NCBI GenBank assembly: GCA_028716565.1
Contig: JAQUPL010000004.1
Span: 68,236 to 132,235 of the forward strand
From: Candidatus Omnitrophota bacterium
GTDB taxonomy: Bacteria > Omnitrophota > Gorgyraeia > Pluralincolimonadales > Pluralincolimonadaceae
Direction of reading: 5' to 3'
Length of the DNA: 64,000 nt
The notes beneath the pieces are model-generated. The model had not been told where the DNA came from. It saw only the letters and a list, made by a program, of their open reading frames with translations, and searched no databases. Positions 8,725 through 59,123 of the stretch are shown piece by piece (position 1 is the stretch's first letter; the number at the start of each line of letters is the position of its first letter). The translations under genes were made by a program, and so were the position numbers.

Positions 8725-8728
8725 GATA

Positions 8729-8756
8729 ATTATAACTATATCCCGGATTTTGTCAA
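8729..8756 (-). promoter_or_regulatory. Sigma70-type promoter of the tetR-efflux operon
   Basis: On the minus strand, TTGACA (8756..8751) is followed by a 16-nt spacer and TATAAT (8734..8729), both consensus hexamers. The operator sits immediately downstream. Confidence 0.5.
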
Positions 8757-8779
8757 GGAAATTGTAGGTTTGGGCCCGC

Positions 8780-12132: not shown

Positions 12133-12138
12133 ATCAGA

Positions 12139-14253: not shown

Positions 14254-14313
14254 GGAAGTAATTATACCAGATTGGAAAATATTTTGGTAGCGGGAACGGT
14301 CAGTCCCGGATCA

Positions 14314-15429: not shown

Positions 15430-15439
15430 TATGCGAAAT

Positions 15440-38995: not shown

Positions 38996-39001
38996 TTATC
39001 T

Positions 39002-40282: not shown

Positions 40283-40369
40283 TCAAAAATACCCCCCTTT
40301 ATTCCTCAAGGATATTTTATGCGGAAAATGAGGCCGCCTGAGGATGAAAACCGGTATAACCAAAGAGTA

Positions 40370-42280: not shown

Positions 42281-42338
42281 TTATGCTCCCTGACAGAACT
42301 CTTTTATTTTCATAAACTTGGCATTGATTATATAACAT

Positions 42339-43388: not shown

Positions 43389-43389
43389 T

Positions 43390-46294: not shown

Positions 46295-46459
46295 TTTAAC
46301 CCGGCCCTTATTTACGAAAGAACGCGGGTGCAGGGGGCTGTTTTTCTGCAGCCGCTAAATCCTCCCCTGGCTGTATTGCAAACCGTGGATATCACCTCTA
46401 TCCTCTTGGAAAAAATGACGGCCGGCTTGCGGTACGGCTTCTTCTTGCCTTCACGCGGG

Positions 46460-47512
46460 CTATCTTTCATCGTTTATCAATTCCTTTCTTTCCGCTACAA
46501 TTTCTCCTATTGCTTTTGCGACCGAACAATCAAAATTCGACGGTCCAAAAATATCGCCGTCTTCGGAAAGCGCTATTCCGGAACATCTAAAACAAAATTG
46601 CACGAGGCCGCATCTCTTGCATTCCGGGAGGTCGGGCAGTTTTATATTTCTTACGAACTTTAACCCCTCCGAGGAACGCCATATATCCCCAAGCTTCTCT
46701 TCATGGAGGTTGCCCAATTTTACGTTCAACCCGATACAGGGATAAACATCGAGATGGGGCGTAATAAAAATATTATTGAATCCGGCGATGCAAAGAAGCG
46801 CATCGCCATCAGCCTCTCTTTTCTTAAGGGGGATACTGTTTGATACGAAGAAATCTTTGATCTTCTCCTCATTGAGCCTGTATTTCAAGGGGCCTTTCGA
46901 GCCGTCGTTCCTGCCCACGACGCAATAATCAAATACAAAATCCGCGCCGATCTCCCCCGCTAAAGACTCAACAGCCCTAAACTCTTCAATATTGTCGTTC
47001 ATGATAAGGAACTTAAGGACGACTTTTATGTTCTTTTCCCTGAGAAGCGTCGCTGCTTTTATTGTCTTATCGAAAGAACCCGGGGAAAAAGTAATGGCAT
47101 CGTGCAGGCCCTTATCGGCGGCATATATGCTCGTCTCGACCGCCAAAGGATGGAGAGACGCTATTTTCCCGCTGACAGTTTCGTCGACCAAAGTGGCGTT
47201 GGTCATCAACCGCAGGGCGAAACCCTGCTCTCTCGCATATGACGCGATATCAAAAAAATCATCCCTCATCAAAACCTCTCCGCCGCTGAGGGTAAGATAA
47301 AGACAGCCCATATTTTTGAGCTCATCTATGACGGATCTTGCCTTTTCATAAGAAAATTCCTGTCTGCCTTTCGCCCCGGCGGCGTAACAATGCCTGCATC
47401 CTAAATTGCATTTATAGGTCAATTCCCAATGGGCCATGAAGCAGATAAAATCATCCATTGTCTTGCGGTATATCCTTAAATACTGGTCTTTGGTAGTGTC
47501 GACTTCTCTCAT
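46460..47512 (-). CDS. Radical SAM/SPASM-domain maturase (PqqE or anSME-like)
   Basis: It has the CNLGCRHC radical SAM cluster motif and the C-terminal SPASM cysteines CKRCGLVQFCFRCSG. It is 350 aa and sits immediately downstream of the PqqD-like gene. Confidence 0.85.
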   Translation of the reverse strand: MREVDTTKDQYLRIYRKTMDDFICFMAHWELTYKCNLGCRHCYAAGAKGRQEFSYEKARSVIDELKNMGCLYLTLSGGEVLMRDDFFDIASYAREQGFALRLMTNATLVDETVSGKIASLHPLAVETSIYAADKGLHDAITFSPGSFDKTIKAATLLREKNIKVVLKFLIMNDNIEEFRAVESLAGEIGADFVFDYCVVGRNDGSKGPLKYRLNEEKIKDFFVSNSIPLKKREADGDALLCIAGFNNIFITPHLDVYPCIGLNVKLGNLHEEKLGDIWRSSEGLKFVRNIKLPDLPECKRCGLVQFCFRCSGIALSEDGDIFGPSNFDCSVAKAIGEIVAERKELINDER

Positions 47513-47513
47513 C

Positions 47514-47795
47514 TTATTTGATCTCTACCGCCCCTCTTTGTACCATATCCTCTATGAACTCGGTGATGTCTTTCAGCGCCTCTTCATGCGTGGCGTCGAA
47601 TTCCGATATGACCGCGGCGCTGATCTCGTCGATATTCCTCTTCCCGTCCATGATCTCCCATATGCGCGAACCGACGTCGCTCAAAACAATGGTCTCCTGT
47701 TTATCCAAAAGGACGATAACGGCCTCTCCGTCTATGATCCTTGAAGCGGTCTTGCCGGATTTGACCGGTATCTTTGTCTTCATATCCACGGTCAA
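47514..47795 (-). CDS. PqqD-family peptide chaperone (RRE domain)
   Basis: It is 93 aa and has the typical PqqD pattern ...GEAVIVL...ETIVLSDVGSRIWEIMDGKRNIDEISAAV...EALKDITEFIEDMVQRG. Confidence 0.75.
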   Translation of the reverse strand: MTVDMKTKIPVKSGKTASRIIDGEAVIVLLDKQETIVLSDVGSRIWEIMDGKRNIDEISAAVISEFDATHEEALKDITEFIEDMVQRGAVEIK

Positions 47796-48634
47796 TTCTC
47801 TCTCTTTGAGAACGCTATTTCAGATTTAAGCCCTTCTATGTGGAGCCAGAACGACGGCTCCGGCAGGAAATGCAGCCCGTAACAAGGCACGGCGGACAGA
47901 AGCTCCGAAAATGCCGCGAGCAATCCATCCCCGGGGATCAGCCCTGCCGGTATATGGGGTACGGTAAATAGATTCGCCAGGGCATACGCGGGCGAGAATC
48001 TCTCCAGATACACCGTCTTGTCTTTTATCAATTTAAACAAGCCCTTTATCCGGTAAGGCTTGTTCTGCCTCGGCCCTATTTGCCTATCTCCCCAGGCCGG
48101 AGTGGGAAAAACCTTAAATTCACCGTCAACTTTCTTGGCGAGTATCAGGTCGTCGCTTAAGATAACCCTGCCCGGAGATAAGCCGGCTACCGTGGACTTG
48201 CCTGCGGTAGACGGGCCGATAAATACGTGCGCCTCTTCCCCTTCCAATACGCCCGCCGCGTGCAGGGCTATCCCCCCGTCTTCCAGGACCACCAAAAATG
48301 TGTAAAGATTCCTCAGAAAAGTGCCCAACGGATACAGGGGATTCAGGGGATTTAACTTTATCCGGCCGCGTCTTTTTGAGAAATCCAGACTGCCTAAAAG
48401 GCAGTCATCCTCTATGACCATGGCGCCGTCTTTAAAAACAAGCTTCGAAAAAGGGAAATATTCCGGCGGCGCATCGCGGGTCAACTCTACATCGACGGAA
48501 AGCGCCGGCTCGGCGTCGGAAAGAAATGCATCATATGCTTCGAGAACATCTTTAACAAAAGATGCGTGGCTCTCTTCATCGATGTTGAGACCTACTATAT
48601 GGCCGGCGACCTCTATCCTGAGTTTTCTTTTCAT
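47792..48634 (-). CDS. HPr-kinase C-terminal-domain-like P-loop protein (HprK-related kinase)
   Basis: It is 280 aa with the P-loop GPSTAGKST followed by SDD, as in the HprK/P catalytic domain. The RBS GGGAGAGA lies in the 17-nt gap after the giant gene. Confidence 0.6.
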   Translation of the reverse strand: MKRKLRIEVAGHIVGLNIDEESHASFVKDVLEAYDAFLSDAEPALSVDVELTRDAPPEYFPFSKLVFKDGAMVIEDDCLLGSLDFSKRRGRIKLNPLNPLYPLGTFLRNLYTFLVVLEDGGIALHAAGVLEGEEAHVFIGPSTAGKSTVAGLSPGRVILSDDLILAKKVDGEFKVFPTPAWGDRQIGPRQNKPYRIKGLFKLIKDKTVYLERFSPAYALANLFTVPHIPAGLIPGDGLLAAFSELLSAVPCYGLHFLPEPSFWLHIEGLKSEIAFSKREN

Positions 48635-48651: not shown

Positions 48652-51600
48652 TTAGTCTTCCGGCTCCTTAGATTCCTTAGAACCGTCTTTCCATCTTTCG
48701 TTGTCTTTGACGTTTGTCAAGACTTCCCGGAGGATATTCGCAAAACTATCCGCCGGTATAGACAGCGAAGGCTGATTACTACCGGACTGTATCTCTATTT
48801 TTTTAACTTTTATATTCTTCTCTATATTTAAAGACAAAGCCGGGTCTCCAAAGAGAGTCTGCGTTTGTATCAAATCTTTATGCTGTCCTCCCGTATTTGA
48901 AAAAAAGTTTATCTTCGCTTTGGTTGTGGCGGGGCCAAGCCTGTAATTGCCGTCCACAAAGATCGATTTGTATAATTCTTCGCTTAAGGCCTGATGCCCT
49001 TCCGGCACGCCCATGCCCGTAGGAGAAAAACAGGCGATCGCGCCGGCGTCTCTTCTCTTCAAAAACACCTCGGCCAGAGATTCGTTCCCCTCTTCCGGGT
49101 GCAGGAAATAACCATCCAGGCAATCAAAGGAGACGACAAAGGGATACTTGCGGTAATTATCTAATAAACCGACCGTACCCGTATTAAATAATCCCTCCTG
49201 GGTCCAAAGGTCGGTCGAGCCGTGTCCTACGTAATTCAGCAAGACCGCGCCGCTATTTATATTATTTATCATGTCCCGGGTAAATTGTGAATAATCCGCG
49301 TAACCGGAAAGATATAATTTCACCGGAATTGCCTTCTTGGGCAGATACTGCAGCAGGTTATCCGAGATCTGTTCAAAGAGCGCCTCGTCATCTGCCGCAA
49401 GAACGACTTTTCTGCTGTATTCCCTGGAACGCAGATTGGCATAAACCACGGTTTTCCTGACTACGTTATCGACTTCGTCCTCGTTCCTTGCGGGGATCCT
49501 GCCGATGAACATATCCGGCAATATATCATCCTGGACTTGCCCGCCGACAAGTTGCGGGGGGTCCAGGCACACAAACCAGTTATCCGAAGCGGTCTCGCCC
49601 AGATACGGCACGTCAGGCAACAGGTAGGCCGGGACGTAGTTTATTTTCCCGGAACCCAGACAATCCCTATAATCGTAATTCGCGTCGCCGACCAGGAGAA
49701 CATACGTAGGCACCGGATGCCGCCACCTATTATAGGCGAATCTTAGGAAATCTTTTATCGCATACGGGCTCACAAGGCCATAATTAAATTCGTCGTATAC
49801 ATCCTCGACGTCGACTACGCTGACGTTCAGCCTTTTATTCCTATACAATCTCTCAAGCGGGGAGAGGCTGTTTTTAAAAGCCCCGTATGAAATTACTATA
49901 TAGTCGGCCTTGTTTTCCGGTGAAGACAGCTTCGAGGGCGCATCGATCTTCAGGCGCTCGGCTAAATTCGCTTTATCCGGGGTCAGGGCGAGGAACCTCT
50001 TTTCCTCACCCGGCTTGAAATCGTACCTGAATATTAACGAATATGAACCGTTCGTTTGGAATACGACCCTAAACCCGGTGACATATTTGGCCGTTGCCGG
50101 CTCGGTTATATCAAATAATTCGGCGTCATCTCTCGTAAACCCGGATATATTGAACTCGTCCACGCCGCCGTTAACCGACTTATAAGAAAAATCCAGGAGA
50201 TTGTCATCCGCGACAAAATTCCGCCAATATTCCACCTCGAAGTAGTTCGGCACAAGAAGGTCGTATTCTGCCCCCGGAGGAAGCTGCGCCGCTATAGTTA
50301 TAGTGTTGCCGCCCTCGACAAGGACGTCCTGCGGCACATTTATCTCTACCACATGTTCATCCTGGCCCTCCCATGACACATAATCAATAAGCCCATTATT
50401 CAGATAGGTCGATGTTTGATGGCCGACGTCAAATAGGGCGTAATAAGCGACTCTCACCTTAGCCTCATCTCCGGGATGGAGGAGATTTATGTCTTTAAGA
50501 TCTATCTGGTAATCAACCTGCGCCCCTCCCCAGATGTAGCTATCCCAAAACCAGCGGTCAACATCCTCGGGGCCTTTGCGCTCGCCCCAATAATAATCGT
50601 TCTTCTCTAAGCGCGTTACGGCCCTAAACCTGTCGGGGGCTTCCGCCGGCTCGTGAGTGTCGGCAGGCGCATTCTCCATCCTCAATCCCGCTCCCTGGTC
50701 GTAGGTAAGCCAATATACATTCTCTTTTGAATATTTTGAATTATTGGCTTGGGCGTAAAATTCAATATAGTCATAACGGCCGAATATCCCGTCTTCTTCC
50801 CCGGAAATACGCAGGGCTACTTCCTTCCCTTTGTTATAACACCTTATCTTGCGCGGATCCAACCGCATTATATCGTAAAAATCAGCGTTCCAGAGGTCAT
50901 CCCACCCTATCCGGTGCAGCCCTTCTTTTGTGGTGTATGCCTTCACCTTAGAATACTTGCCGGGCAAAGGCAGGGGCGGCTCTACCGGCGGGTTGACTTC
51001 GTTGGCGCTGAATTGCAGCTTGACCCTTATCCTTTTATAAAATTTCAAGTCATGACGGGCCGGATTAAAAGCCAGGGGAGCGATGTTCACGCAAGCCGTT
51101 CTTTGGCCCCTCATTTCTCCCACGAACCCGAGGCTGACTATATCAACGGGATAATATTCATCCGCAGAATAAAATTTCTTGTCTACTATAAGCTGCGATT
51201 CTATCTTCTTGAACCGGGGTTTTTCTGCTTTCAAATTTTCATCGGCAGTCATTGTTTTCTTTAAGTCCCCGATAACGCGGGAAGTTCTGACAGGATAGAT
51301 ATTGTAGCCGGATAGTTCGACCACATCAAAATCCAGGTCCGCGACGGCGCAAGATACGCCTTGCGGAATGCTTAACAGGACCGGCTTGAGCGGCATCCGG
51401 GGTTTCCCCTGTTCATCGGTATATCCGTGCTCGTATCCGGGGATCCCAAGGACCTGATACGTGACCCCGCCTATCTTTTTAGGGGTCGCCTTAAATTCTG
51501 AGGTTACGAGCTCCAGGGTAATGCCTGATTCGTCAGAATTGATTACGCGTATCCCTTCTTGCGCCTCTTCCTCTTTTTGCTTCGGGTCCGTGCCGTGTAA

Positions 51601-54600
51601 GAATTCCTCTAAATTAGTGAACCCGTCGCCATCCGGGTCAAGCGAGGCATCGCCAGGATCGTGGGGATCAAACCCGTGATAGATCTCCCAATCATCAGTC
51701 ATACCGTCGCCATCCGAATCCAGCCCCGGATGGGCCGTTACGGGTCCGTGCATCCTGGTGCGGCCGCTGAATTCCACGTCCTCCAACTTATAATAATAGG
51801 TATTGCCGCCGGTTACGTTGCCGTCGGGATAGAAATACTCCCCTCCTATGGTGGAGGTGCCCAGGCCCGGGATCAGCGAAGGATTTAATTTTGTATAAGG
51901 CCCGTTTTTGTTCGTGCTCACGTAAAGGTTAAAACCCGCATTATTGTATTCCGAGGCCGTATTCCAACGAATATCTACTTTGTCAAAATAACCAATGGCG
52001 TAAAAAGACGTCAATTTAACAAGGGTTGGCGAAAACCAGTTGGTGTTATTCCCTCCGTCGTTGGAATTATCGGGATTGATATAATTAGCATTGAGGTTGA
52101 CGGAATTTGATACATCCACATACGCGGCTGTCCAGCCGGGTGACGCGCCTTTAGAACCGGCCGGATATACGGCCCATTGGTTCGAGCCGCTTCCGTCCGA
52201 ACGGCCCAGTGTTATCTGGTTACCCGCGCCCGAGGCGCCGGAGAAATTCAGGTTATTGGTGACAGTCGTGCAATAATTATTGGGGGGAGTTTCCACGTTA
52301 AAAAGCAATGTCTTGCCCGCGGTCGTGCAGGTCAAGTTATAGAATGAGGTGCTTCCGTATATGGTCGAGGTCCTGGTATTATCGTTAAATACAACTGTGC
52401 CGCCGTTGGCGATGACCTGGGCGGAAGTCCCCAGATTCTTAAAATTCCCCCCTACGGTGGTTGTGCCGCTTGAAAGAGTGAGCTCGGCATTTGCGGTGGA
52501 TTCAGGAACAGTTCCGCTCGTTACGATACCAAGTTCAAGCCCGATACTGTGAGTGCCGCTTCCTAAATCAATGTAAGAGATATCAGAGCCATTTATTCTG
52601 GGATATACATGCATATCCAATCCTACCGTGATGTTGCCTGTCGTAACGTTTACCTGGCCTACGCATGCAAATTCGGTCAGGTTCCACTCCCCCGCGTCAA
52701 ACCATCCCGAACTTACAATATTGTACTGGTTGACGTTAAGGACGTTAGTCGTATTCTGGCCCTGATGGCCTGTCTGCCAATTTCCGGAATGGGTCACGTT
52801 CCCCGTAAGGGTCAATGTGGCGCCGTTGGCAATAAATATCTGGGTGGTCGACAGGTCCCCGCCATTCATGGTGGTGGGGGCAGCTAAGTCGAACCAAAGC
52901 TCCGTCACGTAAATTGTGCCGCTGTTTACGATCGTAGCGCCGTATACAAAAATCTTTTGATTAGCTACGCTTTGCTGGAGAACGCCTGTCCCGACGGTCA
53001 ACGTCCCATGGATATCGAAGCCCATCCAGTCGGCGCCCATGTTGATCGAAGTAGTCTTGCCGGCATAGCCGCATGTTAAACTATTGAAAGTTATGTAGTG
53101 GCTATGGCCGATTATCGAGCCCGTGCCCTTAAGGTCGACGAGAGAAGTGCCCCATTGAAAGTTAGCCTGTACGTTCACATCGAAGTTGCCTGTCGTGGCG
53201 TCTTGAATGGTTATCGTCGAGGCGTTCGCGTAGAAAGGACCGTTTATGGTTATAGTACCGTTTGTGCCGCCGTCGCCGGTAGTGAGGTTTTTGCTGGTCG
53301 CGGCGTCGTCGTCAAGGGTGGTAAAGTATTTCCCCGAGTTGTTTGTAAATGTCCCGTCGAGAACGAGGTTATTAGTATGGATATAATTCCTGCTGCCGGT
53401 GGTACCGCCGTTATTGACAAGATTGCCCAAATGCGCGCTGGAATTTATGTATTTGCCGTCGCCTGTCATGGTAAGGGTATTCTTGGTGGTTGTGGCTCCG
53501 AAAGCGGTTATTACCACATTTCCCGAAGCGGATACGGTATTGGTCTGGCTGTTGGTGAATGTCCCTGCATTGGTGAAATCAGCGCAGGATAGGGAACAGT
53601 CCGCGGTATTGGCGGTATAGGTGCCGCCGGCCTCGATAGTGAAATTCCCGCAAACGAGCGAACCGTTATTTGTGATGACGCCGTTCACGTGAGACAAAAG
53701 TTCTGCTGAAAAAGTGCAGGTGCTGCCGCTCCCCACGGTAAAAGAGCAGTGGTCGCTGCCGTTTACCGAGTCATTTATCCAAAAGTTGACTGCGGTTATA
53801 TCTCCCGAACCGGTGGTCACCTGGCCCACTTCTGTCCCGGATGTATCACGGCCGATGAGAAAATTTCCTGAGGATGTAAGATCGTAACCGTCGAGGTTAA
53901 GGACGGCGGTCGAATTAGCTTGCCAAAAGCCTACTCTCCACTCATTAGAGGCGGTCACTGCCCCGGCCAGGGTCACTATGCCCCTGCCGATCTGGATGTG
54001 TTCGGCTGTGTAGACGCCGCCGCCCATGGTGGCGGTGCCCGCGCTGCTGCCGAGCTCAAACTCGAGCTCCACAGGGTTGCACGTTCCGCTGTTAACTATC
54101 GTCGAGCCGTTTTTCATCTGGACTTTTCTCTCGAAAGGGCTGGTAAGAGTGGCTCCGGATAGTATGGTCAGGGTATGATAAACCTGTATGCCTTCCCACG
54201 AGGCATCGGAAGTGGCTGTTACGGTAGGAGTCGCGGACACTTTACCGATAGTCAAATCATAAAATCCGGCTCTAAAGACTCCGCCGCTGCCGGCCGCGCT
54301 CTGTATCTCGGAAGTTACCTGGATGACGACCGTAGAGGTACCGTAAATAAAGGTGCCGTCCACGTCAAAGTTGCCGCCGGCGCCTGTCAGAGTGATAGTT
54401 TTGTTAGAAGCATCCAGGGTACCCGTGCTGCTGATCTTAATATGCTGGGTAAGATCTATGGAGGAAAGCAGGGTATAACTGCCTGAGACATCCAGGTTAT
54501 AAAAAGCATCGGAGTTACTGGAGGTGGTGGTTATGTTTTTCCCGGCGCCGGATAGGTTTACCCAGGATGCGCCTGTGCCCGGTGTGAAAGTCCCTGTGCC

Positions 54601-57600
54601 GGAGACCTCCCAATTACCGCCGACTATTAAAGTGTGGCCTCCCGAATTATCAAGCGTGCCGACAGTGACCGTCATATCGTCGAACTCGCAGGCCGAGTCG
54701 AGGACTATGCTGTCGCCTGCCTCGTCGAGGTTGGTAGCCACCTGGATATCCATGTTATTAAGGTGGACGGTCTTGGTATTGAAGTCGATGTTATTGTTGG
54801 TAAGGGCCCTCTTGGCGCCTGACGAGCCCTTGATGATGATATTGTTGGTCGAGTTGGTTAAGACTATGCCCTCCCCGTCCGCGTTGCCGTTGTTTACTAT
54901 CGAGCCGCCGACCTCTACGGTCACGCTCGCGCTCGAGGCATCCAGGGAAAGGGATTTATTGTCGTTTATCGTCAAGGTGTTAGAGGTGGTGATATTAGTA
55001 TTTTGGGTATAGGTGCCGTTGACCGTAAAGTTATAGAATGTGGTCGTGCCGCCTCCGGTCAGAAGCTTGGTCGTGCCGGCTACCGTGGTGGTGCCGGAGC
55101 TGGACTGGGAGATGGTGCCGGCATTCCTTATATCGTCTGAGACGCTTAAGTTCTTGGCGCCCATGCTTAAGGTGGCGCCGGATTCTATCTGGAGGTCTCC
55201 GGTGCCCTGGACGGTCACGTTGCCGCCCGGGGCGAAGGTCTTGGCGCTTGAACCCTCCAGGAAGAGCTCGATATTGCTGTCTACGGTTAGATTGCCGCCT
55301 GAGGCGGCCGAGACGGAGTAGAGCACATCGCTATCCCCGTCATCCGCATTGTAGAGGTCGTCATTTGTCATGTTGGTCGTGTCTGTGTTGAATACGACGA
55401 GATGGTCCTGGTATATATTTACGCCTGATACGTTGCCGGCGCCGGAGCACCTGTAGGCCGTGGTCCCTTTTGTGGCGCCTCCAGTATTTAGATAGACACA
55501 GATTATATAATTATCGGCCAGGGTACCGTTCGTGATCGTGTATGTCCCTCCGGGATCAGAGGTCGTGGTTGTGTAGACGGATCTCGTGGCTCCGTTATAA
55601 ACGACTACCGTGACGGCTGTGTTGGTTATGGGCGTGGTTTCGGTGTCGTCGGTAAAAGCGGTCCCTGATATAGTCGATGTGCCGAATATCCAGTTTATGT
55701 TATTGCCCGAGTCTGTACCGCTTGTTACAATAATGGTAGCGGGAGTTCCTCCTATGCAGGTCTGGTCTTGCACATCCACGTCTACCATAGTGAAGGTGCC
55801 CGCGCCCTGCCAGTTACGTTGGGTCGGGCTGGCGCTCGACCTTATCTGGATGAGGTCTCCCGTAGGCGCGTCAAACGCTATAATCCCGGCATTGCTGACG
55901 CCTCCGGACAGCGTTACGTTGGCGTTATCGGTCACATTGGTCCACTTTGAGGTAGCATCTGAAAGGGTAACAGCCCCTGTCGTAATCGCGACCTGCTGTA
56001 TTAATTCTCCGTCTGTTATGGTCAATGTCCCGCTTATCGTCGGGGCGTCATTCTGGAAGGTAACATTATCATCGGCACCGGTAGCCGCGGTCTTGTTGAT
56101 CCGGATGTTGTTATAACCGGAGGTGGCCGGCGCGCCGGCATCGAATGTCGTGCTCGTTGTCCCGTATAAAATAAGCGTTCCTGCGGCATTAACGGTGCCG
56201 TTATTATCCCAGTTGCCTCCTACGCTGGTCGTGGCGCTCGAAAGAGTGAGGCGGGCTTGAGCGGCGCCATTGGTCGCGTCGATCGTAACATTGCCTGAAA
56301 ATGTATGGGTACCGCTTCCTAAGTCAATTGAAGATTTAGCGCCGCTGTTATCGGCGCTAAATACATGGAGAGTGGCCGCGGTTATGCTGCCTGCTCCGCA
56401 GGTTATCTGCCCCACCCGTGTTAGACAGCCGCTTTGTCCGACATTAATATTAGCCGTAGGCACGTTAATGTTCTTGCCGTTGAGATTAAGTATGCTCGTC
56501 TTGTTTTCGGCGCCGACATTATAACCTATCCGCCAATCTCCGGAATCGGTTATATCCCCGCCGAGGGTGAGTGTGCCGCCTGCGGTCATTTGGATCGCCG
56601 TATCCTCGTAATCCCCTCCGCCCAGGGTGGCGGTGCCGCCGGTGACGATCGCGAACTCGAGCTCGGTCACATTGATCACACCGCCGTTGACCACTGCCGA
56701 GGTGTCATACATCACGACCCTTCTTTCCGCCGCAGATGTCAGGGTGCCTGTCGCCGCCGTAGTCAGGGTCCCGCGCACATCTATGCCGTTCCACGCGTCG
56801 CCTCCGGTAACCGTTGTGGTCTTACCGGCGGCGGCGCAGGTCAGGTTATAAAATTTTGCCTGAAACCAGCCGTCGCTCACTAAGTTCCCGGTACCCTGCA
56901 GGTTGACCGTAGAGGTACCGTAGTTAAAAGTGCCGGTCACGGTCAAGTGGCCGTCGCCTGTCATGGTTATGGTCGAACTGTTAGCCGTAAAAGTGCCGTT
57001 AATGGTTATCGCACCGGCTGAGGACAGGCTCCTGCCTGCCCCGGCCGAAGCGGTATAAGAGGCACTCGCCTTGTTCTCGAAGGTGCCGCAGGCGATCGAA
57101 CCGTTATTTGTGATAACGGAGGCGTTCGTGCCGTTGCCGTTGGTAATGCCGTTTGAGCCCGCCGCGATGCTTCCGCTCGCGGTTACGGTAATTGTGCCGT
57201 AGGTGTTGGTGATCGTCCCTCCCACCGTCGCGGTGTAAGCTCCGGTCGTAAAAGAAGTGGTGGCGTTGCCGTTCAAGGTAACGGCGTCGAACTCGCAGGC
57301 CGAGTCGAGGACTATGCTGTCGCCTGCCTCGTCGAGGTTGGTAGCCACCTGGATATCCATGTTATTAAGGTGGACGGTCTTGGTATTGAAGTCGATGTTA
57401 TTGTTGGTAAGGGCCCTCTTGGCGCCTGACGAGCCCTTGATGATGATATTGTTGGTCGAGTTGGTTAAGACTATGCCCTCCCCGTCCGCGTTGCCGTTGT
57501 TTACTATCGAGCCGCCGACCTCTACGGTCACGCTCGCGCTCGAGGCATCCAGGGAAAGGGATTTATTGTCGTTTATCGTCAAGGTGTTAGAGGTGGTGAT

Positions 57601-58926
57601 ATTAGTATTTTGGGTATAGGTGCCGTTGACCGTAAAGTTATAGAATGTGGTCGTGCCGCCTCCGGTCAGAAGCTTGGTCGTGCCGGCTACCGTGGTGGTG
57701 CCGGAGCTGGACTGGGAGATGGTGCCGGCATTCCTTATATCGTCTGAGACGCTTAAGTTCTTGGCGCCCATGCTTAAGGTGGCGCCGGATTCTATCTGGA
57801 GGTCTCCGGTGCCCTGGACGGTCACGTTGCCGCCCGGGGCGAAGGTCTTGGCGCTTGAACCCTCCAGGAAGAGCTCGATATTGCTGTCTACGGTTAGATT
57901 GCCGCCTGAGGCGGCCGAGACGGAGTAGAGGATATTTGCATTACCGTCGTCAACCTTGTAAAGGTCATCGTTGGTCATGTTGGTCGTGTCGTTATTAAAC
58001 ACGACAACATGGTCTTTATAAAGGTTAAGGTTGGATACGTTGCTTGTGCCTCCGCATCTATAGACTGAGGTAGCCTTATCGCTGCCGGTAAGGCAGGCAC
58101 TGATTATATCGTTATCTCCGAGCTCTCCGCTTTGAAGGGTCACGGAATAGACGCCGTTGGCATCTGTCGTGGCCGTAAAACTGGACGTCCTGGACAATGA
58201 GCTGTCGTAGACGATCACCCTGACGGGCGCGCCGGATATAGGAGTAGCTTCGGTGTCATCGGTGTAGACGGTGCCTCCCACGGTGGGCCCCGAGGGAGCG
58301 GATGTACCGGCGTACAAATCGTCCAAACTCACCGCACCGCTACAACCGGAGGCCCAGTCCTTTATCCCAAAGACCGGCCGGCCATAAGCAGCAGTGGACG
58401 GTGACGTAATTTTTGCGGATACATTTTTCCAAATATTATAAGGATCGGTACCGTCCGGATAAAGATAGCCTATGAAATCTTCCGAGATCTTCGCACTCCC
58501 TGATGTATACCACTCGACTTTAAGGTACCCATTCCAAAGGTGCAAGGGGTCGGTAGACAGATTATAAAAATAAGCATTAAAGTAATAGTCTGTACTCGCG
58601 GTTACGGCAAAGTCCTGCCAGAGACCAGAATCATCCCACCACATCTTTACTGCCTTTGAGCCGCTGATCGTATGGTTATAATCGTTGTGATGCCAGCCGC
58701 TATTACCCCAGCTGCTCCAGTCAGTGATCGTTACATAGCCTAATTGCCCTGTATCGCCTACTTCAAAATCTCCGTTCTTTACAAGGCCCAGGTCTCCCGC
58801 GACGGCTTCGTTGCAGGCGGCAAACAGCGAAAATACCGCCGCAAAAAGCAAAAGGGCGGGAAAAAATCCCGCCATTTTGTCGCTGAAAAATCCTTTTATT
58901 TTGTTAGACCCTTGCCTAACTTTCAT
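48652..58926 (-). CDS. Giant secreted multidomain protein (3424 aa): a CBM4/9-like N-terminal domain, a CarboxypepD_reg-like domain, about 2000 aa of T/G/N/S-rich parallel-beta-helix-type repeats, a beta-sandwich domain, thrombospondin-type-3-like Ca-binding repeats, and a C-terminal peptidase C25 (gingipain-like) domain
   Basis: It has a signal peptide, and the N-terminal domain begins NGDFEVG...W. The C-terminal 420 aa align to gingipain hallmarks: ADYIVISYG...TYVLLVGD, NYVGHGS (catalytic His, cf. RgpB NYTGHGS) and PFVVSFDCLDGYF (catalytic Cys, cf. PFIFDVACVNGDF). DSDGDGMTDD...DPDGDGFTN forms calcium-binding repeats. The possible true start is MAGFFPALLLF at 58875. Confidence 0.85.
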   Translation of the reverse strand: MKVRQGSNKIKGFFSDKMAGFFPALLLFAAVFSLFAACNEAVAGDLGLVKNGDFEVGDTGQLGYVTITDWSSWGNSGWHHNDYNHTISGSKAVKMWWDDSGLWQDFAVTASTDYYFNAYFYNLSTDPLHLWNGYLKVEWYTSGSAKISEDFIGYLYPDGTDPYNIWKNVSAKITSPSTAAYGRPVFGIKDWASGCSGAVSLDDLYAGTSAPSGPTVGGTVYTDDTEATPISGAPVRVIVYDSSLSRTSSFTATTDANGVYSVTLQSGELGDNDIISACLTGSDKATSVYRCGGTSNVSNLNLYKDHVVVFNNDTTNMTNDDLYKVDDGNANILYSVSAASGGNLTVDSNIELFLEGSSAKTFAPGGNVTVQGTGDLQIESGATLSMGAKNLSVSDDIRNAGTISQSSSGTTTVAGTTKLLTGGGTTTFYNFTVNGTYTQNTNITTSNTLTINDNKSLSLDASSASVTVEVGGSIVNNGNADGEGIVLTNSTNNIIIKGSSGAKRALTNNNIDFNTKTVHLNNMDIQVATNLDEAGDSIVLDSACEFDAVTLNGNATTSFTTGAYTATVGGTITNTYGTITVTASGSIAAGSNGITNGNGTNASVITNNGSIACGTFENKASASYTASAGAGRSLSSAGAITINGTFTANSSTITMTGDGHLTVTGTFNYGTSTVNLQGTGNLVSDGWFQAKFYNLTCAAAGKTTTVTGGDAWNGIDVRGTLTTAATGTLTSAAERRVVMYDTSAVVNGGVINVTELEFAIVTGGTATLGGGDYEDTAIQMTAGGTLTLGGDITDSGDWRIGYNVGAENKTSILNLNGKNINVPTANINVGQSGCLTRVGQITCGAGSITAATLHVFSADNSGAKSSIDLGSGTHTFSGNVTIDATNGAAQARLTLSSATTSVGGNWDNNGTVNAAGTLILYGTTSTTFDAGAPATSGYNNIRINKTAATGADDNVTFQNDAPTISGTLTITDGELIQQVAITTGAVTLSDATSKWTNVTDNANVTLSGGVSNAGIIAFDAPTGDLIQIRSSASPTQRNWQGAGTFTMVDVDVQDQTCIGGTPATIIVTSGTDSGNNINWIFGTSTISGTAFTDDTETTPITNTAVTVVVYNGATRSVYTTTTSDPGGTYTITNGTLADNYIICVYLNTGGATKGTTAYRCSGAGNVSGVNIYQDHLVVFNTDTTNMTNDDLYNADDGDSDVLYSVSAASGGNLTVDSNIELFLEGSSAKTFAPGGNVTVQGTGDLQIESGATLSMGAKNLSVSDDIRNAGTISQSSSGTTTVAGTTKLLTGGGTTTFYNFTVNGTYTQNTNITTSNTLTINDNKSLSLDASSASVTVEVGGSIVNNGNADGEGIVLTNSTNNIIIKGSSGAKRALTNNNIDFNTKTVHLNNMDIQVATNLDEAGDSIVLDSACEFDDMTVTVGTLDNSGGHTLIVGGNWEVSGTGTFTPGTGASWVNLSGAGKNITTTSSNSDAFYNLDVSGSYTLLSSIDLTQHIKISSTGTLDASNKTITLTGAGGNFDVDGTFIYGTSTVVIQVTSEIQSAAGSGGVFRAGFYDLTIGKVSATPTVTATSDASWEGIQVYHTLTILSGATLTSPFERKVQMKNGSTIVNSGTCNPVELEFELGSSAGTATMGGGVYTAEHIQIGRGIVTLAGAVTASNEWRVGFWQANSTAVLNLDGYDLTSSGNFLIGRDTSGTEVGQVTTGSGDITAVNFWINDSVNGSDHCSFTVGSGSTCTFSAELLSHVNGVITNNGSLVCGNFTIEAGGTYTANTADCSLSCADFTNAGTFTNSQTNTVSASGNVVITAFGATTTKNTLTMTGDGKYINSSAHLGNLVNNGGTTGSRNYIHTNNLVLDGTFTNNSGKYFTTLDDDAATSKNLTTGDGGTNGTITINGPFYANASTITIQDATTGNFDVNVQANFQWGTSLVDLKGTGSIIGHSHYITFNSLTCGYAGKTTSINMGADWMGFDIHGTLTVGTGVLQQSVANQKIFVYGATIVNSGTIYVTELWFDLAAPTTMNGGDLSTTQIFIANGATLTLTGNVTHSGNWQTGHQGQNTTNVLNVNQYNIVSSGWFDAGEWNLTEFACVGQVNVTTGNITVGLDMHVYPRINGSDISYIDLGSGTHSIGLELGIVTSGTVPESTANAELTLSSGTTTVGGNFKNLGTSAQVIANGGTVVFNDNTRTSTIYGSTSFYNLTCTTAGKTLLFNVETPPNNYCTTVTNNLNFSGASGAGNQITLGRSDGSGSNQWAVYPAGSKGASPGWTAAYVDVSNSVNLNANYINPDNSNDGGNNTNWFSPTLVKLTSFYAIGYFDKVDIRWNTASEYNNAGFNLYVSTNKNGPYTKLNPSLIPGLGTSTIGGEYFYPDGNVTGGNTYYYKLEDVEFSGRTRMHGPVTAHPGLDSDGDGMTDDWEIYHGFDPHDPGDASLDPDGDGFTNLEEFLHGTDPKQKEEEAQEGIRVINSDESGITLELVTSEFKATPKKIGGVTYQVLGIPGYEHGYTDEQGKPRMPLKPVLLSIPQGVSCAVADLDFDVVELSGYNIYPVRTSRVIGDLKKTMTADENLKAEKPRFKKIESQLIVDKKFYSADEYYPVDIVSLGFVGEMRGQRTACVNIAPLAFNPARHDLKFYKRIRVKLQFSANEVNPPVEPPLPLPGKYSKVKAYTTKEGLHRIGWDDLWNADFYDIMRLDPRKIRCYNKGKEVALRISGEEDGIFGRYDYIEFYAQANNSKYSKENVYWLTYDQGAGLRMENAPADTHEPAEAPDRFRAVTRLEKNDYYWGERKGPEDVDRWFWDSYIWGGAQVDYQIDLKDINLLHPGDEAKVRVAYYALFDVGHQTSTYLNNGLIDYVSWEGQDEHVVEINVPQDVLVEGGNTITIAAQLPPGAEYDLLVPNYFEVEYWRNFVADDNLLDFSYKSVNGGVDEFNISGFTRDDAELFDITEPATAKYVTGFRVVFQTNGSYSLIFRYDFKPGEEKRFLALTPDKANLAERLKIDAPSKLSSPENKADYIVISYGAFKNSLSPLERLYRNKRLNVSVVDVEDVYDEFNYGLVSPYAIKDFLRFAYNRWRHPVPTYVLLVGDANYDYRDCLGSGKINYVPAYLLPDVPYLGETASDNWFVCLDPPQLVGGQVQDDILPDMFIGRIPARNEDEVDNVVRKTVVYANLRSREYSRKVVLAADDEALFEQISDNLLQYLPKKAIPVKLYLSGYADYSQFTRDMINNINSGAVLLNYVGHGSTDLWTQEGLFNTGTVGLLDNYRKYPFVVSFDCLDGYFLHPEEGNESLAEVFLKRRDAGAIACFSPTGMGVPEGHQALSEELYKSIFVDGNYRLGPATTKAKINFFSNTGGQHKDLIQTQTLFGDPALSLNIEKNIKVKKIEIQSGSNQPSLSIPADSFANILREVLTNVKDNERWKDGSKESKEPED
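54677..55323. repeat. Copy 2 of a 647-bp, 100%-identical intragenic direct repeat, the core of a diverged 2607-bp tandem duplication
   Basis: It is identical to 57284..57930. The opposite-strand shadow ORFs 55040..55321 and 57647..57928 give identical 93-aa products. Identity decays in the flanks. Confidence 0.85.
57284..57930. repeat. Copy 1 of the 647-bp identical intragenic direct repeat
   Basis: It is identical to 54677..55323 at an offset of exactly 2607 bp (869 codons), so it is in frame. It encodes LYSVSAASGGNLTVDSNIELFLEG...SACEFD in both copies. Confidence 0.85.
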
Positions 58927-59123
58927 TCAAATTCGCTCCCCTTAAAATTTTCCCAACTATTTCTGCTGTATGATTATACATAAAATACACGTGGTTGTCA
59001 AGGAGCGAAAAATATCCCTGTTTATCGCCCCGCTGAGCAATGGATTTATCCGGGTTTTTCGGGCCATTTTTCTTCTTGACAAGGGGGCGTTTTCTAATCA
59101 TAATGCGTAGTATTCATAAAAAG

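What the first reader, a model, noticed from the sequence alone, without database searches (positions are those of the whole stretch)
48652..58926. 3424-aa surface protein combining a CBM-like head, about 2000 aa of beta-helix repeats and a C-terminal gingipain-like C25 peptidase, translationally coupled to the kinase/PqqD/rSAM cassette
The C-terminal 420 aa carry the full C25 catalytic signature. The first subdomain reads ...YVLLVGD. The His sits in NYVGHGS at nt 49222-49224, and the Cys sits in FDCLDG at nt 49120-49122. Calcium-binding thrombospondin-3-like repeats and a propeptide-like region precede it.

The gene ends 17 nt before the hprK-like start, whose RBS GGGAGAGA lies in that gap. 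The giant protein is therefore the most plausible partner or substrate of the downstream modification enzymes. A SPASM enzyme acting on a full protein has precedent in sulfatase maturase.

A C25 peptidase domain at the extreme C-terminus of an adhesin-like giant protein is unusual outside Bacteroidota. It could be a self-processing or sorting domain, analogous to PorU/T9SS logic, rather than a free protease.
Basis: partly seen in the sequence, partly recalled or inferred. Interest (0 to 1): 0.8.

Follow-up and report, generated by a model that had tools for sequence, protein, structure and literature searches.

The report
Giant C25 peptidase beside peptide-maturation operon
A real 3,424-residue exported gingipain/PorU-type cysteine peptidase from a Candidatus Omnitrophota genome heads an operon that matures a small 52-residue cysteine-rich peptide, so the downstream enzymes most likely modify that peptide and not the giant protein.

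Summary

The protein is already in NCBI as a "C25 family cysteine peptidase" (MDD5546647.1). C-terminal C25 domains are the norm in hundreds of non-Bacteroidota relatives.

The link to the kinase/PqqD/rSAM genes is real and conserved: Omnitrophota, Chloroflexota and about one third of informative metagenome loci.

The giant protein is very unlikely to be the substrate. A conserved 52-aa precursor ORF (46312-46470) overlaps the rSAM stop. It has a lasso/LPP-type YxxPxV leader, three Cys and pN/pS of 0.2-0.4. Loci without the rSAM have Cys-free peptides.

The cassette is a variant of the "linear polyphosphorylated peptide" clusters (Popov 2026, reported as Bacillota-only), extended here by a SPASM rSAM and the C25 partner. 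The C25 protein's role, probably extracellular processing or ligation of the peptide, is inferred from synteny only.

The parts
58973..59001 (-). Sigma-70 consensus promoter (TTGACA-N17-TATAAT, 12/12) upstream of the giant gene
48652..58926 (-). Giant gene, 3,424 aa, NCBI MDD5546647.1 'C25 family cysteine peptidase'
58795..58926 (-). N-terminal signal-type region (aa 1-44). It holds the only hydrophobic segment in the protein, aa 20-38, followed by ...LFAAC.
   Evidence: hydropathy; whether the cleavage is SPI or lipoprotein type was not determined
58282..58794 (-). Head domain (aa 45-215). Its relatives are small PEP-CTERM-anchored, CBM_4_9-like proteins of glycan-utilisation loci.
   Evidence: no Pfam hit for the window copy itself
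57931..58281 (-). Ig-like domain 1 (aa 216-332); weak Big_1 / CarboxypepD_reg hits
55675..57930 (-). Parallel beta-helix unit 1 (aa 333-1084). Together with Ig-like domain 1 it forms the extra 869-aa unit that is absent from the L008 ortholog.
57285..57930 (-). Exact 646-nt repeat, copy 1 (aa 333-547)
54678..55323 (-). Exact 646-nt repeat, copy 2 (aa 1202-1416); other assemblies break here
55324..55674 (-). Ig-like domain 2 (aa 1085-1201), 61-74% identical to domain 1
52057..55323 (-). Parallel beta-helix region 2 (aa 1202-2290), built from ~400-aa super-repeats
51727..52056 (-). Beta-sandwich (FN3-like) linker domain (aa 2291-2400), conserved in P0001/L002
   Evidence: no Pfam hit, so the label is an inference
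51562..51726 (-). Two bacterial TSP3 calcium-binding repeats (DSDGDGMTDD, DPDGDGFTN)
51004..51561 (-). Propeptide_C25-like domain (aa 2456-2641)
49903..51003 (-). PorU-like middle domains (aa 2642-3008)
   Evidence: PorU model positions 38-763 match aa 2692-3397
48829..49902 (-). Peptidase_C25 catalytic domain (aa 3009-3366); His3235 at 49222-49224, Cys3269 at 49120-49122
48655..48828 (-). C-terminal tail (aa 3367-3424) with the subfamily-conserved motif F-x-x-I...N...(R/K)W(K/R)D-x-x-K
47792..48634 (-). HprK-related P-loop kinase (ScmC / LppK-like), Walker A GPSTAGKST
47514..47795 (-). PqqD-family RiPP recognition element (LppB-like); best NCBIfam hit is the lasso PqqD chaperone
46460..47512 (-). 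Radical SAM/SPASM enzyme (CNLGCRHC cluster motif; SPASM CKRCGLVQFCFRC)
46312..46470 (-). 52-aa precursor peptide MKDSPREGKKKPYRKPAVIFSKRIEVISTVCNTARGGFSGCRKTAPCTRVLS (MDD5546643.1, annotated hypothetical)
45815..46294 (-). Soluble archaeal-type signal-peptidase-I / S24-S26 peptidase (LppS-like leader peptidase; GDSMGP Ser, CAHRL His)
   Evidence: PMC13381572
44293..45883 (+). ABC-2 exporter (ATPase 44293-45075, permease 45077-45883)
42339..43388 (-). NTP_transf_5 nucleotidyltransferase (LppN-like), lying between Wza and Wzc
37460..44169 (-). EPS export and polymerisation genes: Wza (43390-44169), Wzc (40370-42280), Wzy_C (39002-40282), flippase (37460-38995)

Best explanation
What the gene encodes. 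The ORF is a genuine gene of a Candidatus Omnitrophota MAG. It encodes an exported multidomain cysteine peptidase with two parts.
- The C-terminal ~1,000 aa are the conserved functional core. It is PorU-like: a Propeptide_C25-like domain, beta-sandwich middle domains, and a C25 catalytic domain with an intact His/Cys dyad.
- The N-terminal ~2,300 aa are a fast-evolving, lineage-specific extension. It has a glycan-binding-type head, two Ig-like domains and about 1,950 aa of right-handed parallel beta-helix. One 869-aa unit is recently duplicated.

The operon. The gene is first in a tight operon. The following genes are a variant of the LPP (linear polyphosphorylated peptide) class of RiPP clusters:
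- an HprK-like kinase;
- a PqqD recognition element;
- a soluble SipW-like leader peptidase;
- an NTP-transferase and an exporter;
- additionally, here, a SPASM radical-SAM enzyme.

The substrate. These enzymes most likely act on the 52-aa precursor encoded at 46312-46470.

Inferred pathway (not shown).
1. PqqD binds the peptide's YxxPxV leader.
2. The rSAM acts on its three Cys, probably forming thioether-type cross-links.
3. The kinase phosphorylates a Ser. The C-terminal Ser52 or Ser28 are candidates.
4. The S24-type peptidase removes the leader in the cytoplasm.
5. The ABC-2 pump exports the product.
6. The C25 protein then acts outside the cytoplasm on that peptide or on a peptide-polysaccharide conjugate, by trimming or by PorU-like transpeptidation. 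Its head and beta-helix stalk would position it on surface glycan.

What is shown and what is inferred. Shown here: the domain identities, the conserved synteny, and the reality of the precursor family. Inferred: the chemistry, and any direct C25-peptide interaction.
For: C25 identity and dyad.

Fold and head:
- Beta-helix fold.
- Head family.

Assembly support. An independent 2,554-aa collinear ortholog exists, and fragments from other MAGs match the gene.

Tight operon. Gaps or overlaps of -11 to +17 nt from the giant gene through the S24 peptidase gene, with no convincing terminator.

The precursor peptide:
- Conserved right after the rSAM in orthologous loci at 40-81% identity.
- pN/pS of 0.20-0.41.
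- Leave-one-out profile recovers 9 of 16 peptides at E<=2e-6, across Omnitrophota, Verrucomicrobiota, Syntrophaceae, Dehalococcoidia and Methanobacteriaceae.
- rSAM-negative Chloroflexota loci have Cys-free cores.

LPP precedent (PMC13381572). The core set is SpI-like LppS, RRE LppB, HprK-like LppK, NTP-transferase LppN and an exporter, embedded in capsular polysaccharide loci, with a YxxPxVL...FET leader. It was shown experimentally that LppS removes the leader and LppK polyphosphorylates a Ser. Locus L022 (Halobacillus), retrieved with the window's kinase, has the canonical lppA-K-S-D-N order.

C25 linkage to the cassette:
- Contexts of P0001, P0005, P0011, P0014 and P0041.
- In Chloroflexota the C25 gene sits inside the cassette, between the peptide gene and S24/PqqD.
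- 13 of 41 informative C25-anchored metagenome loci carry at least 2 cassette genes.

Topology. Only the giant protein carries a signal-type segment; the enzymes are soluble.
Against: - No experiment or structure links the C25 domain to the peptide. The link is synteny only.
- The leader-peptidase role is already filled by the S24/SpI-type enzyme, so the C25 step is unspecified.
- About 25 informative C25 loci, plus P0030 and P0032, lack the cassette. Several cassette loci with 10-kb flanks lack C25 (L012, L016, L019, L025, L028). Each can therefore work without the other.
- The Ser3 phosphosite of Bacillota LPPs is not conserved in these peptides.
- The best NCBIfam hits of the rSAM are AhbD, NirJ and MftC, not thioether synthases, so the chemistry is open.
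- The Chloroflexota peptides are only borderline by profile (E 0.01-0.06). The L006 and L030 peptides are motif-level candidates only.
- The extra 869-aa unit depends on one assembly crossing a 646-nt exact repeat.
Confidence: 0.6

Rival explanations
1. The giant protein itself is the substrate of the PqqD/rSAM/kinase enzymes, a protein-level maturation analogous to the anaerobic sulfatase maturase.
For: - Immediate adjacency and a conserved gene order, C25 then kinase then PqqD then rSAM.
- The closest subfamily shares a conserved C-terminal tail that could in principle be a recognition site.
- Cytoplasmic modification before export cannot be excluded.
Against: - A dedicated, conserved precursor with an RRE-type leader exists.
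- The leader profile finds nothing in the giant protein or in 41 homologs.
- rSAM presence follows Cys in the small peptide, not any feature of the C25 protein.
- Cassette-linked C25 proteins share only the catalytic core.
- The C-terminal tail is absent in cassette-linked P0011 and L011, and differs in P0014.
- In the homologous LPP system the enzymes act on the small peptide (PMC13381572).
Confidence: 0.06
2. The C25 protein is functionally independent of the peptide pathway. It would be a surface protease or adhesin of the EPS/cell-envelope locus, for example for prey or host attachment and protein degradation in Omnitrophota. On this view it merely shares an operon or island with an LPP-type cluster because both are envelope-associated.
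For: - The whole window is one large glycan/EPS locus.
- LPP clusters in Bacillota are also embedded in capsule loci without any C25 (PMC13381572).
- Many C25 relatives lack the cassette, and many cassettes lack C25.
- The N-terminal regions look like adhesins.
Against: - The adjacency survives across phyla with otherwise different neighbours and gene orders.
- In Chloroflexota the C25 gene lies between the peptide gene and S24/PqqD.
- In the P0041 locus, cassettes flank the C25 gene on both sides.
- In relatives the downstream cassette gene overlaps the C25 stop codon.
Confidence: 0.25
3. The 3,424-aa length is partly an assembly artefact. The true gene would be the ~2,555-aa form (head-Ig-R-C, as in L008). 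The 869-aa unit between the two copies of the 646-nt repeat would come from a strain variant or a paralog.
For: - The repeat is exact over 646 nt.
- Short-read assemblies from at least three datasets break at it.
- The ortholog in MAG fen_1319 is exactly one unit shorter.
- The unit is nearly an orphan in the database.
Against: - The join is in frame (2,607 nt = 869 codons).
- Sequence just upstream of the exact repeat is similar but diverged (60-78%), as expected for a true tandem duplication with partial homogenisation.
- P0132, from another MAG, confirms head-Ig1-R, where Ig1 is the divergent copy and not the L008-type Ig2.
- A-R-B-R-C is the only linear path that uses all segments.
Confidence: 0.12

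Closest known systems
PorU, the type IX secretion system sortase (C25; PDB 6za2; NCBIfam NF033707)
   Same: - It is the best-matching solved structure and the best curated model. About 700 aa (aa 2692-3397) align to PorU model positions 38-763.
- The His/Cys dyad is aligned.
- An N-terminal beta-domain is followed by the C25 catalytic domain.
- PorU is a transpeptidase that attaches proteins to a surface glycolipid (PMC8545088, PMC4560394). This makes it a mechanistic template for a ligase role in a polysaccharide locus.
   Different: - The score of 257 bits is below the 420-bit cutoff.
- The C-terminal third of PorU (model positions 764-1095) is absent.
- No T9SS genes are in the 64-kb window.
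- The partners here are RiPP-type enzymes and not PorV/PorZ/PorQ.
- This protein carries a 2,300-aa N-terminal extension.
Gingipains RgpB and Kgp (MEROPS C25; PDB 1cvr, 4ief, 4rbm)
   Same: The catalytic domain family is the same, with His211/Cys244 equivalents. A Propeptide_C25-type domain is present upstream.
   Different: - Sequence similarity is low (E about 1e-7).
- The propeptide-like domain is separated from the catalytic domain by about 370 aa.
- There is no IgSF + T9SS CTD after the catalytic domain.
- The S1 specificity residue could not be aligned.
Linear polyphosphorylated peptide (LPP) clusters of Bacillota (Popov et al., Nat Commun 2026, PMC13381572)
   Same: [quoted passage not shown]
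- The precursor has a YxxPx(V/I/L)...(F/I/L)E leader.
- The cluster is embedded in a polysaccharide locus.
   Different: - LPPs are reported as restricted to Bacillota. This cluster is in Omnitrophota, with relatives in Chloroflexota, Verrucomicrobiota, Desulfobacterota-type lineages, Dehalococcoidia and a methanogen.
- This cluster adds a SPASM radical-SAM enzyme, a short Cys-rich core and the C25 protein.
- The exporter is ABC-2 type and not MsbA-like.
- The FET|xxS cleavage and phosphorylation motif is not conserved.
SynChlorMet (SCM) cassette of NCBIfam/TIGRFAMs (ScmC TIGR04249, ScmD TIGR04248, ScmE/F TIGR04250/1)
   Same: It has the same trio of an HprK-related protein, a PqqD homolog and rSAM/SPASM. 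ScmC is the best hit for the kinase-like protein, and Pfam PF27840 ScmC is called on all orthologs.
   Different: All scores are far below the curated cutoffs (28 vs 125, 39 vs 100, 89 vs 400 bits). The window has one rSAM and not two. From memory, the SCM description names no precursor.
Paeninodin/pseudomycoidin-type lasso peptide tailoring (HPr-kinase homolog + nucleotidyltransferase; PMC8498205)
   Same: The kinase, NTP-transferase and RRE families are homologous, and the leader motif is YxxP-type. The kinases phosphorylate a C-terminal Ser, and most peptides here end in Ser or Thr.
   Different: There is no lasso cyclase or B2 protease. The two AsnB-like genes in the window carry GATase domains. 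They score best as XrtA/PEP-CTERM amidotransferases (650 and 606 bits) and not as lasso cyclase (257 and 245 bits, against a 525-bit cutoff).
Parallel beta-helix adhesins and passenger domains (Vag8, EtpA, UpaB, TibA, Ag43) and giant Omnitrophota surface proteins (West-Roberts et al. 2023 bioRxiv)
   Different: There is no autotransporter barrel or TPS domain. This protein ends in a protease. The Omnitrophota giant-protein papers do not mention C25 or PqqD, and at 3.4 kaa this one is small by their standards.

Membership tests
MEROPS/Pfam Peptidase_C25 | Full-length match to the C25 catalytic domain above the curated threshold | tested here: met
   PF01364, 275 bits against a cutoff of 23, model 1-374/374
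MEROPS/Pfam Peptidase_C25 | Catalytic His and Cys at the positions of RgpB His211/Cys244 | tested here: met
   GHGS and C(L)DG align to RgpB and PorU. Conserved in 37 and 36 of 43 aligned homologs; the exceptions are truncated.
MEROPS/Pfam Peptidase_C25 | Proteolytic or transpeptidase activity | not testable with these tools
   Needs biochemistry
PorU (T9SS sortase) | Score above the NCBIfam NF033707 equivalog cutoff over the full model, including the C-terminal domains | tested here: not met
   257 bits against 420. Only model positions 38-763 of 1095 are matched.
PorU (T9SS sortase) | Genomic association with T9SS components | tested here: inconclusive
   None among the ORFs annotated across the 64-kb window. 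The rest of the genome was not available.
Gingipain (RgpB/Kgp type) | Prodomain directly preceding the catalytic domain, followed by IgSF and a T9SS C-terminal domain | tested here: not met
   Propeptide_C25 lies 370 aa upstream. After the catalytic domain there is only a 58-aa charged tail. No CTD model hit.
LPP-type RiPP cluster (Popov 2026) | Co-located discrete RRE, HprK-like kinase, SpI-like peptidase, NTP-transferase and exporter | tested here: met
   PqqD (47514-47795), ScmC/HprK-like (47792-48634), S24 passing TIGR02228 (52.0 against 51.85), NTP_transf_5 (42339-43388) and an ABC-2 pump. These are homologous to the genes of a canonical Bacillota locus, L022.
LPP-type RiPP cluster (Popov 2026) | Precursor with the YxxPxVLxHQxIxFETxxS leader | tested here: inconclusive
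   YRKPAVIFSKRIEV shares YxxPxV and the (I/F)E element. The spacer is 2 residues shorter and FET|xxS is absent (PMC13381572).
LPP-type RiPP cluster (Popov 2026) | Polyphosphorylation of a core Ser, and RRE-dependent leader cleavage by the SpI-like peptidase | not testable with these tools
   Needs expression and mass spectrometry
SynChlorMet cassette | ScmC, ScmD and ScmE/F above the equivalog cutoffs | tested here: not met
   28 against 125, 39 against 100, and 89 against 400 bits
Lasso peptide system | Asn-synthetase-like macrolactam cyclase and a B2 transglutaminase-like peptidase in the cluster | tested here: not met
   None is adjacent. The two distant AsnB-like proteins pass asn_synth_AEB and fail the lasso cyclase model, 257 and 245 against 525. 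The Chloroflexota operon has none either.
Sactipeptide/ranthipeptide-type rSAM RiPP | rSAM/SPASM with an RRE acting on a Cys-containing precursor to form thioethers | tested here: inconclusive
   rSAM/SPASM, PqqD and a 3-Cys core are present, and rSAM presence correlates with Cys. The chemistry is untested and the best family hits are not thioether synthases.
PEP-CTERM/exosortase substrate | C-terminal PEP motif, TM helix and a basic tail | tested here: not met
   The giant protein has no C-terminal hydrophobic segment. Only the small relatives of its head domain carry PEP-CTERM. No exosortase is in the window.

The most novel reading that the evidence does not exclude
The C25 module is a T9SS-independent, PorU-like transpeptidase. 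It covalently couples the exported, rSAM-cross-linked and phospho-(glyco)sylated peptide to the locus's exopolysaccharide or to surface proteins, or it uses the peptide as an anchor or primer.

That would define a new peptide-glycan sorting or ligation system shared by Omnitrophota and Chloroflexota. It would also reveal the still-unknown end product and role of LPP-type RiPPs.

In this organism the giant CBM/beta-helix extension would place that activity on glycan at a distance from the cell, for example at a host or prey surface.
Probability: 0.13. Interest if true: 0.85.

Novelty: new variant of a known kind. Interest (0 to 1): 0.55.

Why it matters
- **Range of the peptide family.** LPP-type RiPP clusters were described only in 2026, as Bacillota-restricted and with an unknown final product and role. 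This locus and its relatives show the same core machinery in candidate and environmental phyla and in a methanogen.
- **Old radical-SAM cassettes.** The locus gives the 'SynChlorMet'-type HprK/PqqD/rSAM cassettes a plausible precursor peptide family.
- **Two recurrent additions.** These are a SPASM radical-SAM enzyme tied to Cys-rich cores, and an exported PorU-like C25 peptidase.
- **A testable idea.** If the C25 enzyme really processes or ligates the peptide, these peptides would connect to cell-surface polysaccharide biology. That would offer a testable function for a large, uncharacterised C25 subfamily outside Bacteroidota.
- **The giant protein.** On its own it is ordinary for the phylum and is already annotated as a C25 peptidase.

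Tried and rejected
1. **Head structure.** A single-sequence AlphaFold model of the head plus Ig region (aa 41-332) failed (pLDDT 37), so it gave no structural test of 'CBM-like'.
2. **Sequence searches of the N-terminal region.** Sequence searches of the head and a repeat unit against PDB found nothing. Relaxed Pfam found nothing in the head or the beta-helix.
4. **First genome scan.** A 4-sequence alignment worked.
5. **Loose leader motif.** A YxxPx[ILVM] regex is not specific on its own: 116 chance-level matches and an odds ratio of 1.5. It was replaced by a leave-one-out profile test. By that test the L006, L027 and L022 peptides are not significant and are treated as candidates only.
6. 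**Lasso-peptide hypothesis.** Rejected: no cyclase or B2 protease, and the AsnB-like genes are XrtA-type amidotransferases.
7. **C25 as the leader peptidase.** Down-weighted, because the homologous SpI-like peptidase has that role in LPPs (PMC13381572).
8. **PorU/T9SS membership.** Rejected.
9. **S1-pocket specificity.** The RgpB Asp163 equivalent could not be assigned, because the alignment there is unreliable.
10. **Curated families.** NCBIfam has no model for the peptide or for the NTP_transf_5 protein.
11. **Literature.** Searches for C25 + PqqD + radical SAM, and for gingipain + RiPP, found nothing relevant. The ScmC/SynChlorMet search returned only unrelated acronyms.


Full report

Yes. 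The window has a single ORF at 48652..58926 on the minus strand, encoding 3,424 aa. A perfect sigma-70 consensus promoter (TTGACA-N17-TATAAT, 59001-58973) and a purine-rich RBS precede it.

Pfam places these domains:
- a full-length Peptidase_C25 domain at aa 3009-3366 (E 1.3e-81, model 1-374/374);
- a Propeptide_C25 domain at aa 2456-2641;
- two bacterial TSP3 repeats at aa 2403-2452.

His3235 in NYVGHGS is at nt 49222-49224, and Cys3269 in SFDCLDG is at nt 49120-49122. In phmmer alignments to solved structures they fall on RgpB His211 and Cys244 and on the PorU equivalents. The dyad is conserved in essentially every full-length homolog, including a Chloroflexota one.

The stop codon lies 17 nt before the next start. 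The GGGAGAG run abuts the ATG, which is an unusually short spacer. Co-transcription is therefore well supported, while translational coupling in this window is only plausible. In relatives the next gene overlaps the C25 stop by 4-16 nt.

**2. The N-terminal 2,300 aa**

Pfam sees almost nothing here, only weak Ig-like hits at aa 216-332.

- *Repeat structure.* Self-comparison shows two Ig-like domains (aa 216-332 and 1085-1201). It also shows a ~400-aa super-repeat present at least three times.
- *Conservation.* The repeat unit is nearly an orphan, with only two hits below 1e-5 in 5.8 billion proteins.
- *Head.* The head (aa 45-215) has just seven relatives. All are ~200-aa secreted proteins in which the domain is followed directly by a PEP-CTERM anchor. 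Three of the eight family members hit CBM_4_9 weakly. Two examined relatives lie in glycan-utilisation loci containing GH30, GH35, glycoamylase, CBM9 and CBM11. 'CBM-like' is therefore reasonable but only weakly supported. The single-sequence model failed.

**3. Is the ORF chimeric?**

A 646-nt stretch is exactly duplicated in frame, 2,607 nt apart (57285-57930 and 54678-55323; aa 333-547 = aa 1202-1416).

Other assemblies break at this repeat:
- The Logan contig of SRR22315506 starts 30 nt before the end of copy 2.
- A fragment from another MAG (P0132) is 100% identical to aa 1-374 and stops 42 aa into copy 1.
- Two fragments from a 92%-identical population start inside the end of copy 2.

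So the repeat is real in several populations, and only the source contig crosses it (134 kb, NCBI MAG, protein MDD5546647.1).

An independent Omnitrophota MAG (L008) encodes a 2,554-aa ortholog. Its head matches at 82%, and the rest is collinear with aa 1085-3424 at 77%. The window protein therefore equals that form plus one extra 869-aa unit.

The flank just upstream of the exact repeat is similar but diverged. This fits a true tandem duplication with partial homogenisation. I put about 0.12 on the extra unit being an assembly artefact. Nothing else in the analysis depends on it.

**4. What the protein belongs to**

The C-terminal 1,045 aa found 273 relatives at E<=1e-10 among the scored candidates. 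Most are 1,000-1,800 aa with the C25 domain at the C-terminus. They come from Omnitrophota, Kiritimatiellia, Acidobacteriota, Chloroflexota and unclassified bacteria, and carry variable N-terminal modules (Laminin_G_3, FN3, Calx-beta, CARDB, SdrD_B). A C-terminal C25 domain outside Bacteroidota is therefore common.

The best curated match is the PorU T9SS sortase model. About 700 aa align to model positions 38-763 of 1095. The score of 257 bits is below the 420-bit cutoff, and the C-terminal third of PorU is missing. The protein is PorU-like in architecture but is not a PorU family member. NCBI already names it 'C25 family cysteine peptidase'.

**5. The downstream genes and their real substrate**

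The genes following the giant gene on the minus strand form a tight operon, with gaps or overlaps of -11 to +17 nt between successive genes:
- an HprK-related P-loop protein (ScmC-like);
- a PqqD-family protein, whose best NCBIfam hit is the lasso PqqD chaperone;
- a radical SAM/SPASM enzyme;
- a 52-aa ORF at 46312-46470 that overlaps the rSAM stop;
- an S24/S26 peptidase that passes the archaeal-type signal peptidase I model.

The 52-aa ORF reads MKDSPREGKKKPYRKPAVIFSKRIEVISTVCNTARGGFSGCRKTAPCTRVLS. Evidence that it is a real precursor:
- It is conserved in the same position in orthologous loci at 40-81% identity.
- It shows purifying selection, with pN/pS of 0.20-0.41.
- It is a called 'hypothetical protein' in NCBI.
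- A leave-one-out profile recovers 9 of 16 family members at E<=2e-6 among 12,746 six-frame ORFs. These come from Omnitrophota, Verrucomicrobiota, Syntrophaceae, Dehalococcoidia and Methanobacteriaceae, always next to the cassette.
- All members share (K/R)-x-Y-x-x-P-x-(I/L/V)...(I/L/F)-E, followed in most by a Cys-rich core that usually ends in Ser or Thr.

The Chloroflexota loci lack the rSAM. Their peptides keep the leader but have no Cys.

The leader profile finds nothing in the giant protein or in 41 C25 homologs. ScmC, PqqD, the rSAM, the S24 peptidase, NTP_transf_5 and the peptide have no hydrophobic segments, whereas the giant protein has an N-terminal signal-type segment.

Together these results make the small peptide, and not the giant protein, the likely substrate.

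**6. What the cassette is**

Popov et al. (Nat Commun 2026, PMC13381572) describe 'linear polyphosphorylated peptides' (LPPs).
- The precursors carry a YxxPxVLxHQxIxFETxxS leader.
- The clusters are embedded in capsular polysaccharide loci.
- They showed experimentally that LppS removes the leader in an RRE-dependent way and that LppK polyphosphorylates a core Ser.
- They state that LPPs are restricted to Bacillota and that the final product and role are unknown.
- Neither the paper nor its supplements mention a C25 peptidase or a radical SAM enzyme.

The window carries homologs of every core component, including NTP_transf_5 at 42339-43388. It sits in a large EPS locus with Wza, Wzc, Wzy_C, a flippase, many glycosyltransferases and methyltransferases, two B12-rSAMs and two XrtA-type amidotransferases.

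A Halobacillus locus retrieved with the window's kinase (L022) shows the canonical lppA-K-S-D-N order.

The window's cassette is therefore an LPP-type cluster variant outside Bacillota. It has three differences: a SPASM rSAM with a short Cys-rich core, an ABC-2 exporter, and the C25 partner. It also corresponds loosely to the older 'SynChlorMet' cassette models, well below their cutoffs.

**7. Is the C25 protein really part of it?**

The genomic association is strong but not universal.

For the association:
- Five of eight C25-anchored context look-ups show the full cassette next to the C25 gene: P0001, P0005, P0011, P0014 and the 30%-identical P0041. P0041 is flanked by cassette genes on both sides.
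- A sixth look-up (P0026) has the cassette dispersed, 8 kb away.
- A ScmC-anchored scan of one genome per species found C25 next to ScmC and PqqD in two Omnitrophota and five Chloroflexota loci; S24 and/or NTP_transf_5 accompany them in six of the seven, all but L029.
- In the Chloroflexota operon the 1,002-aa C25 gene lies between the peptide gene and S24/PqqD.
- In a C25-anchored metagenome sample, 13 of 41 loci with at least 3 kb of downstream flank carry at least two cassette genes. This is a lower bound.

Against a strict dependence:
- About 25 informative C25 loci lack the cassette, as do P0030 and P0032.
- Several well-flanked cassettes lack C25.

**8. Mechanism I commit to**

The peptide is matured in the cytoplasm and then exported:
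1. PqqD binds the leader.
2. The rSAM acts on the Cys residues.
3. The kinase phosphorylates a Ser.
4. NTP_transf_5 decorates the phosphate.
5. The S24-type peptidase removes the leader.
6. The ABC-2 pump exports the product.

The exported C25 enzyme then acts on the peptide or on a peptide-glycan conjugate. It would do so by trimming or, like PorU (PMC8545088, PMC4560394), by transpeptidation. The head and beta-helix would position it on glycan.

Steps 1, 3 and 5 rest on homology to an experimentally studied system. Step 2 rests on the rSAM-Cys correlation. The C25 step rests on synteny only, and I give it about 0.5.

The rivals are the giant protein as substrate (0.06), an independent surface protease (0.25) and a partial assembly artefact (0.12).

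**9. Novelty and score**

The giant protein itself is an ordinary, already-annotated member of a large C25 subfamily. Long beta-helical surface proteins are a known Omnitrophota trait.

Four things appear to be undescribed in the literature I could search:
- the recurrent pairing of a PorU-like C25 peptidase with LPP-type RiPP clusters;
- the rSAM/Cys-rich variant of these clusters;
- their presence far outside Bacillota;
- a precursor family for SCM-type cassettes.

This is a new variant of a known kind. It is of moderate interest to RiPP and cell-envelope specialists.

Noticed in passing
window 58282-58794 (head); proteins P0123-P0129; loci L033, L034: The head domain's only relatives are ~200-aa secreted proteins that end in a PEP-CTERM exosortase sorting signal. 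They are encoded in glycan-utilisation loci. In the giant protein the Ig/beta-helix region starts exactly where those relatives carry PEP-CTERM. No exosortase gene is in the window.
   Followed up: partly
C-termini of P0015, P0017, P0018, P0019, P0021, P0023, P0024, P0028, P0030, P0035: Many C25 relatives end in a poly-Gly run, then CFI(S/N/T)T, a hydrophobic helix and basic residues. This looks like an uncharacterised C-terminal sorting signal. The window's subfamily has a different tail, a conserved charged one (F-x-x-I...N...(R/K)W(K/R)D-x-x-K).
   Followed up: no
window 16548-19517 and 24262-26160 (-): Two AsnB-like amidotransferases score best as XrtA/PEP-CTERM system amidotransferase (TIGR03108; 606 and 650 bits, below the 817-bit cutoff). 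One is fused to a GT9 heptosyltransferase domain. Wza and Wzc also best match XrtA-associated families. The EPS locus is therefore PEP-CTERM-type in flavour.
   Followed up: partly
window 26352-27638 (+) and 36002-37438 (+): Two B12-binding radical SAM enzymes lie on the opposite strand inside the glycosyltransferase/methyltransferase block. They have no equivalog match; their best hits are HpnJ, BchE and P-methyltransferase types.
   Followed up: no
locus L032 (contig CDLCZW010000023.1), 1-19000: A 1,731-aa C25 protein with SdrD_B repeats is flanked on both sides by PqqD/rSAM/ScmC sets, one of them with two rSAM genes. NTP_transf_5 is also nearby. This is a doubled cassette around one C25 gene.
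   Followed up: no
loci L006 13375-13656 and L030 13557-13763: Candidate Cys-rich peptides (…KKRYEKPRLKKVQLDAKCAVLGFC…SPGS) lie immediately downstream of C25 genes whose ScmC/PqqD are distant or not in the flank. They are not significant in the leave-one-out profile test. DUF7483 giant genes sit upstream of both C25 genes.
   Followed up: partly
window 58855-58873: A 7-bp GC-rich hairpin followed by a T-rich tract (GGCGGGATTTTTTCCCGCC CTTTTGCTTT) lies inside the signal-peptide coding region, just after the internal Met18 codon. It may be coincidental, or it may mark an alternative start or an attenuator.
   Followed up: no
window 1-16000 vs 16000-50000: G+C drops from about 54% (4-16 kb) to 42-48% across the EPS locus. 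The 4-16 kb part carries TolC-like/ABC-2/HlyD efflux genes, a GH16 + F5/8-type-C protein, GalT, TerC and PHO4. The repeat region of the giant gene rises again to 51-56%, from its Gly/Thr/Ala-rich composition.
   Followed up: no
window 59040-60426 (+); locus L005 130-2623: WbqC-like and PIG-L deacetylase genes flank the C25 gene upstream in both the window (divergently, with an 11/12 promoter at 59076-59104) and the distant L005 locus. This suggests that amino-sugar modification genes are also conserved neighbours.
   Followed up: no
loci L005, L006, L011: Rce1-like (CPBP) intramembrane protease genes recur near the C25/ScmC/PqqD genes in three distant loci. In L011 the protease is fused to an HTH domain.
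   Followed up: no
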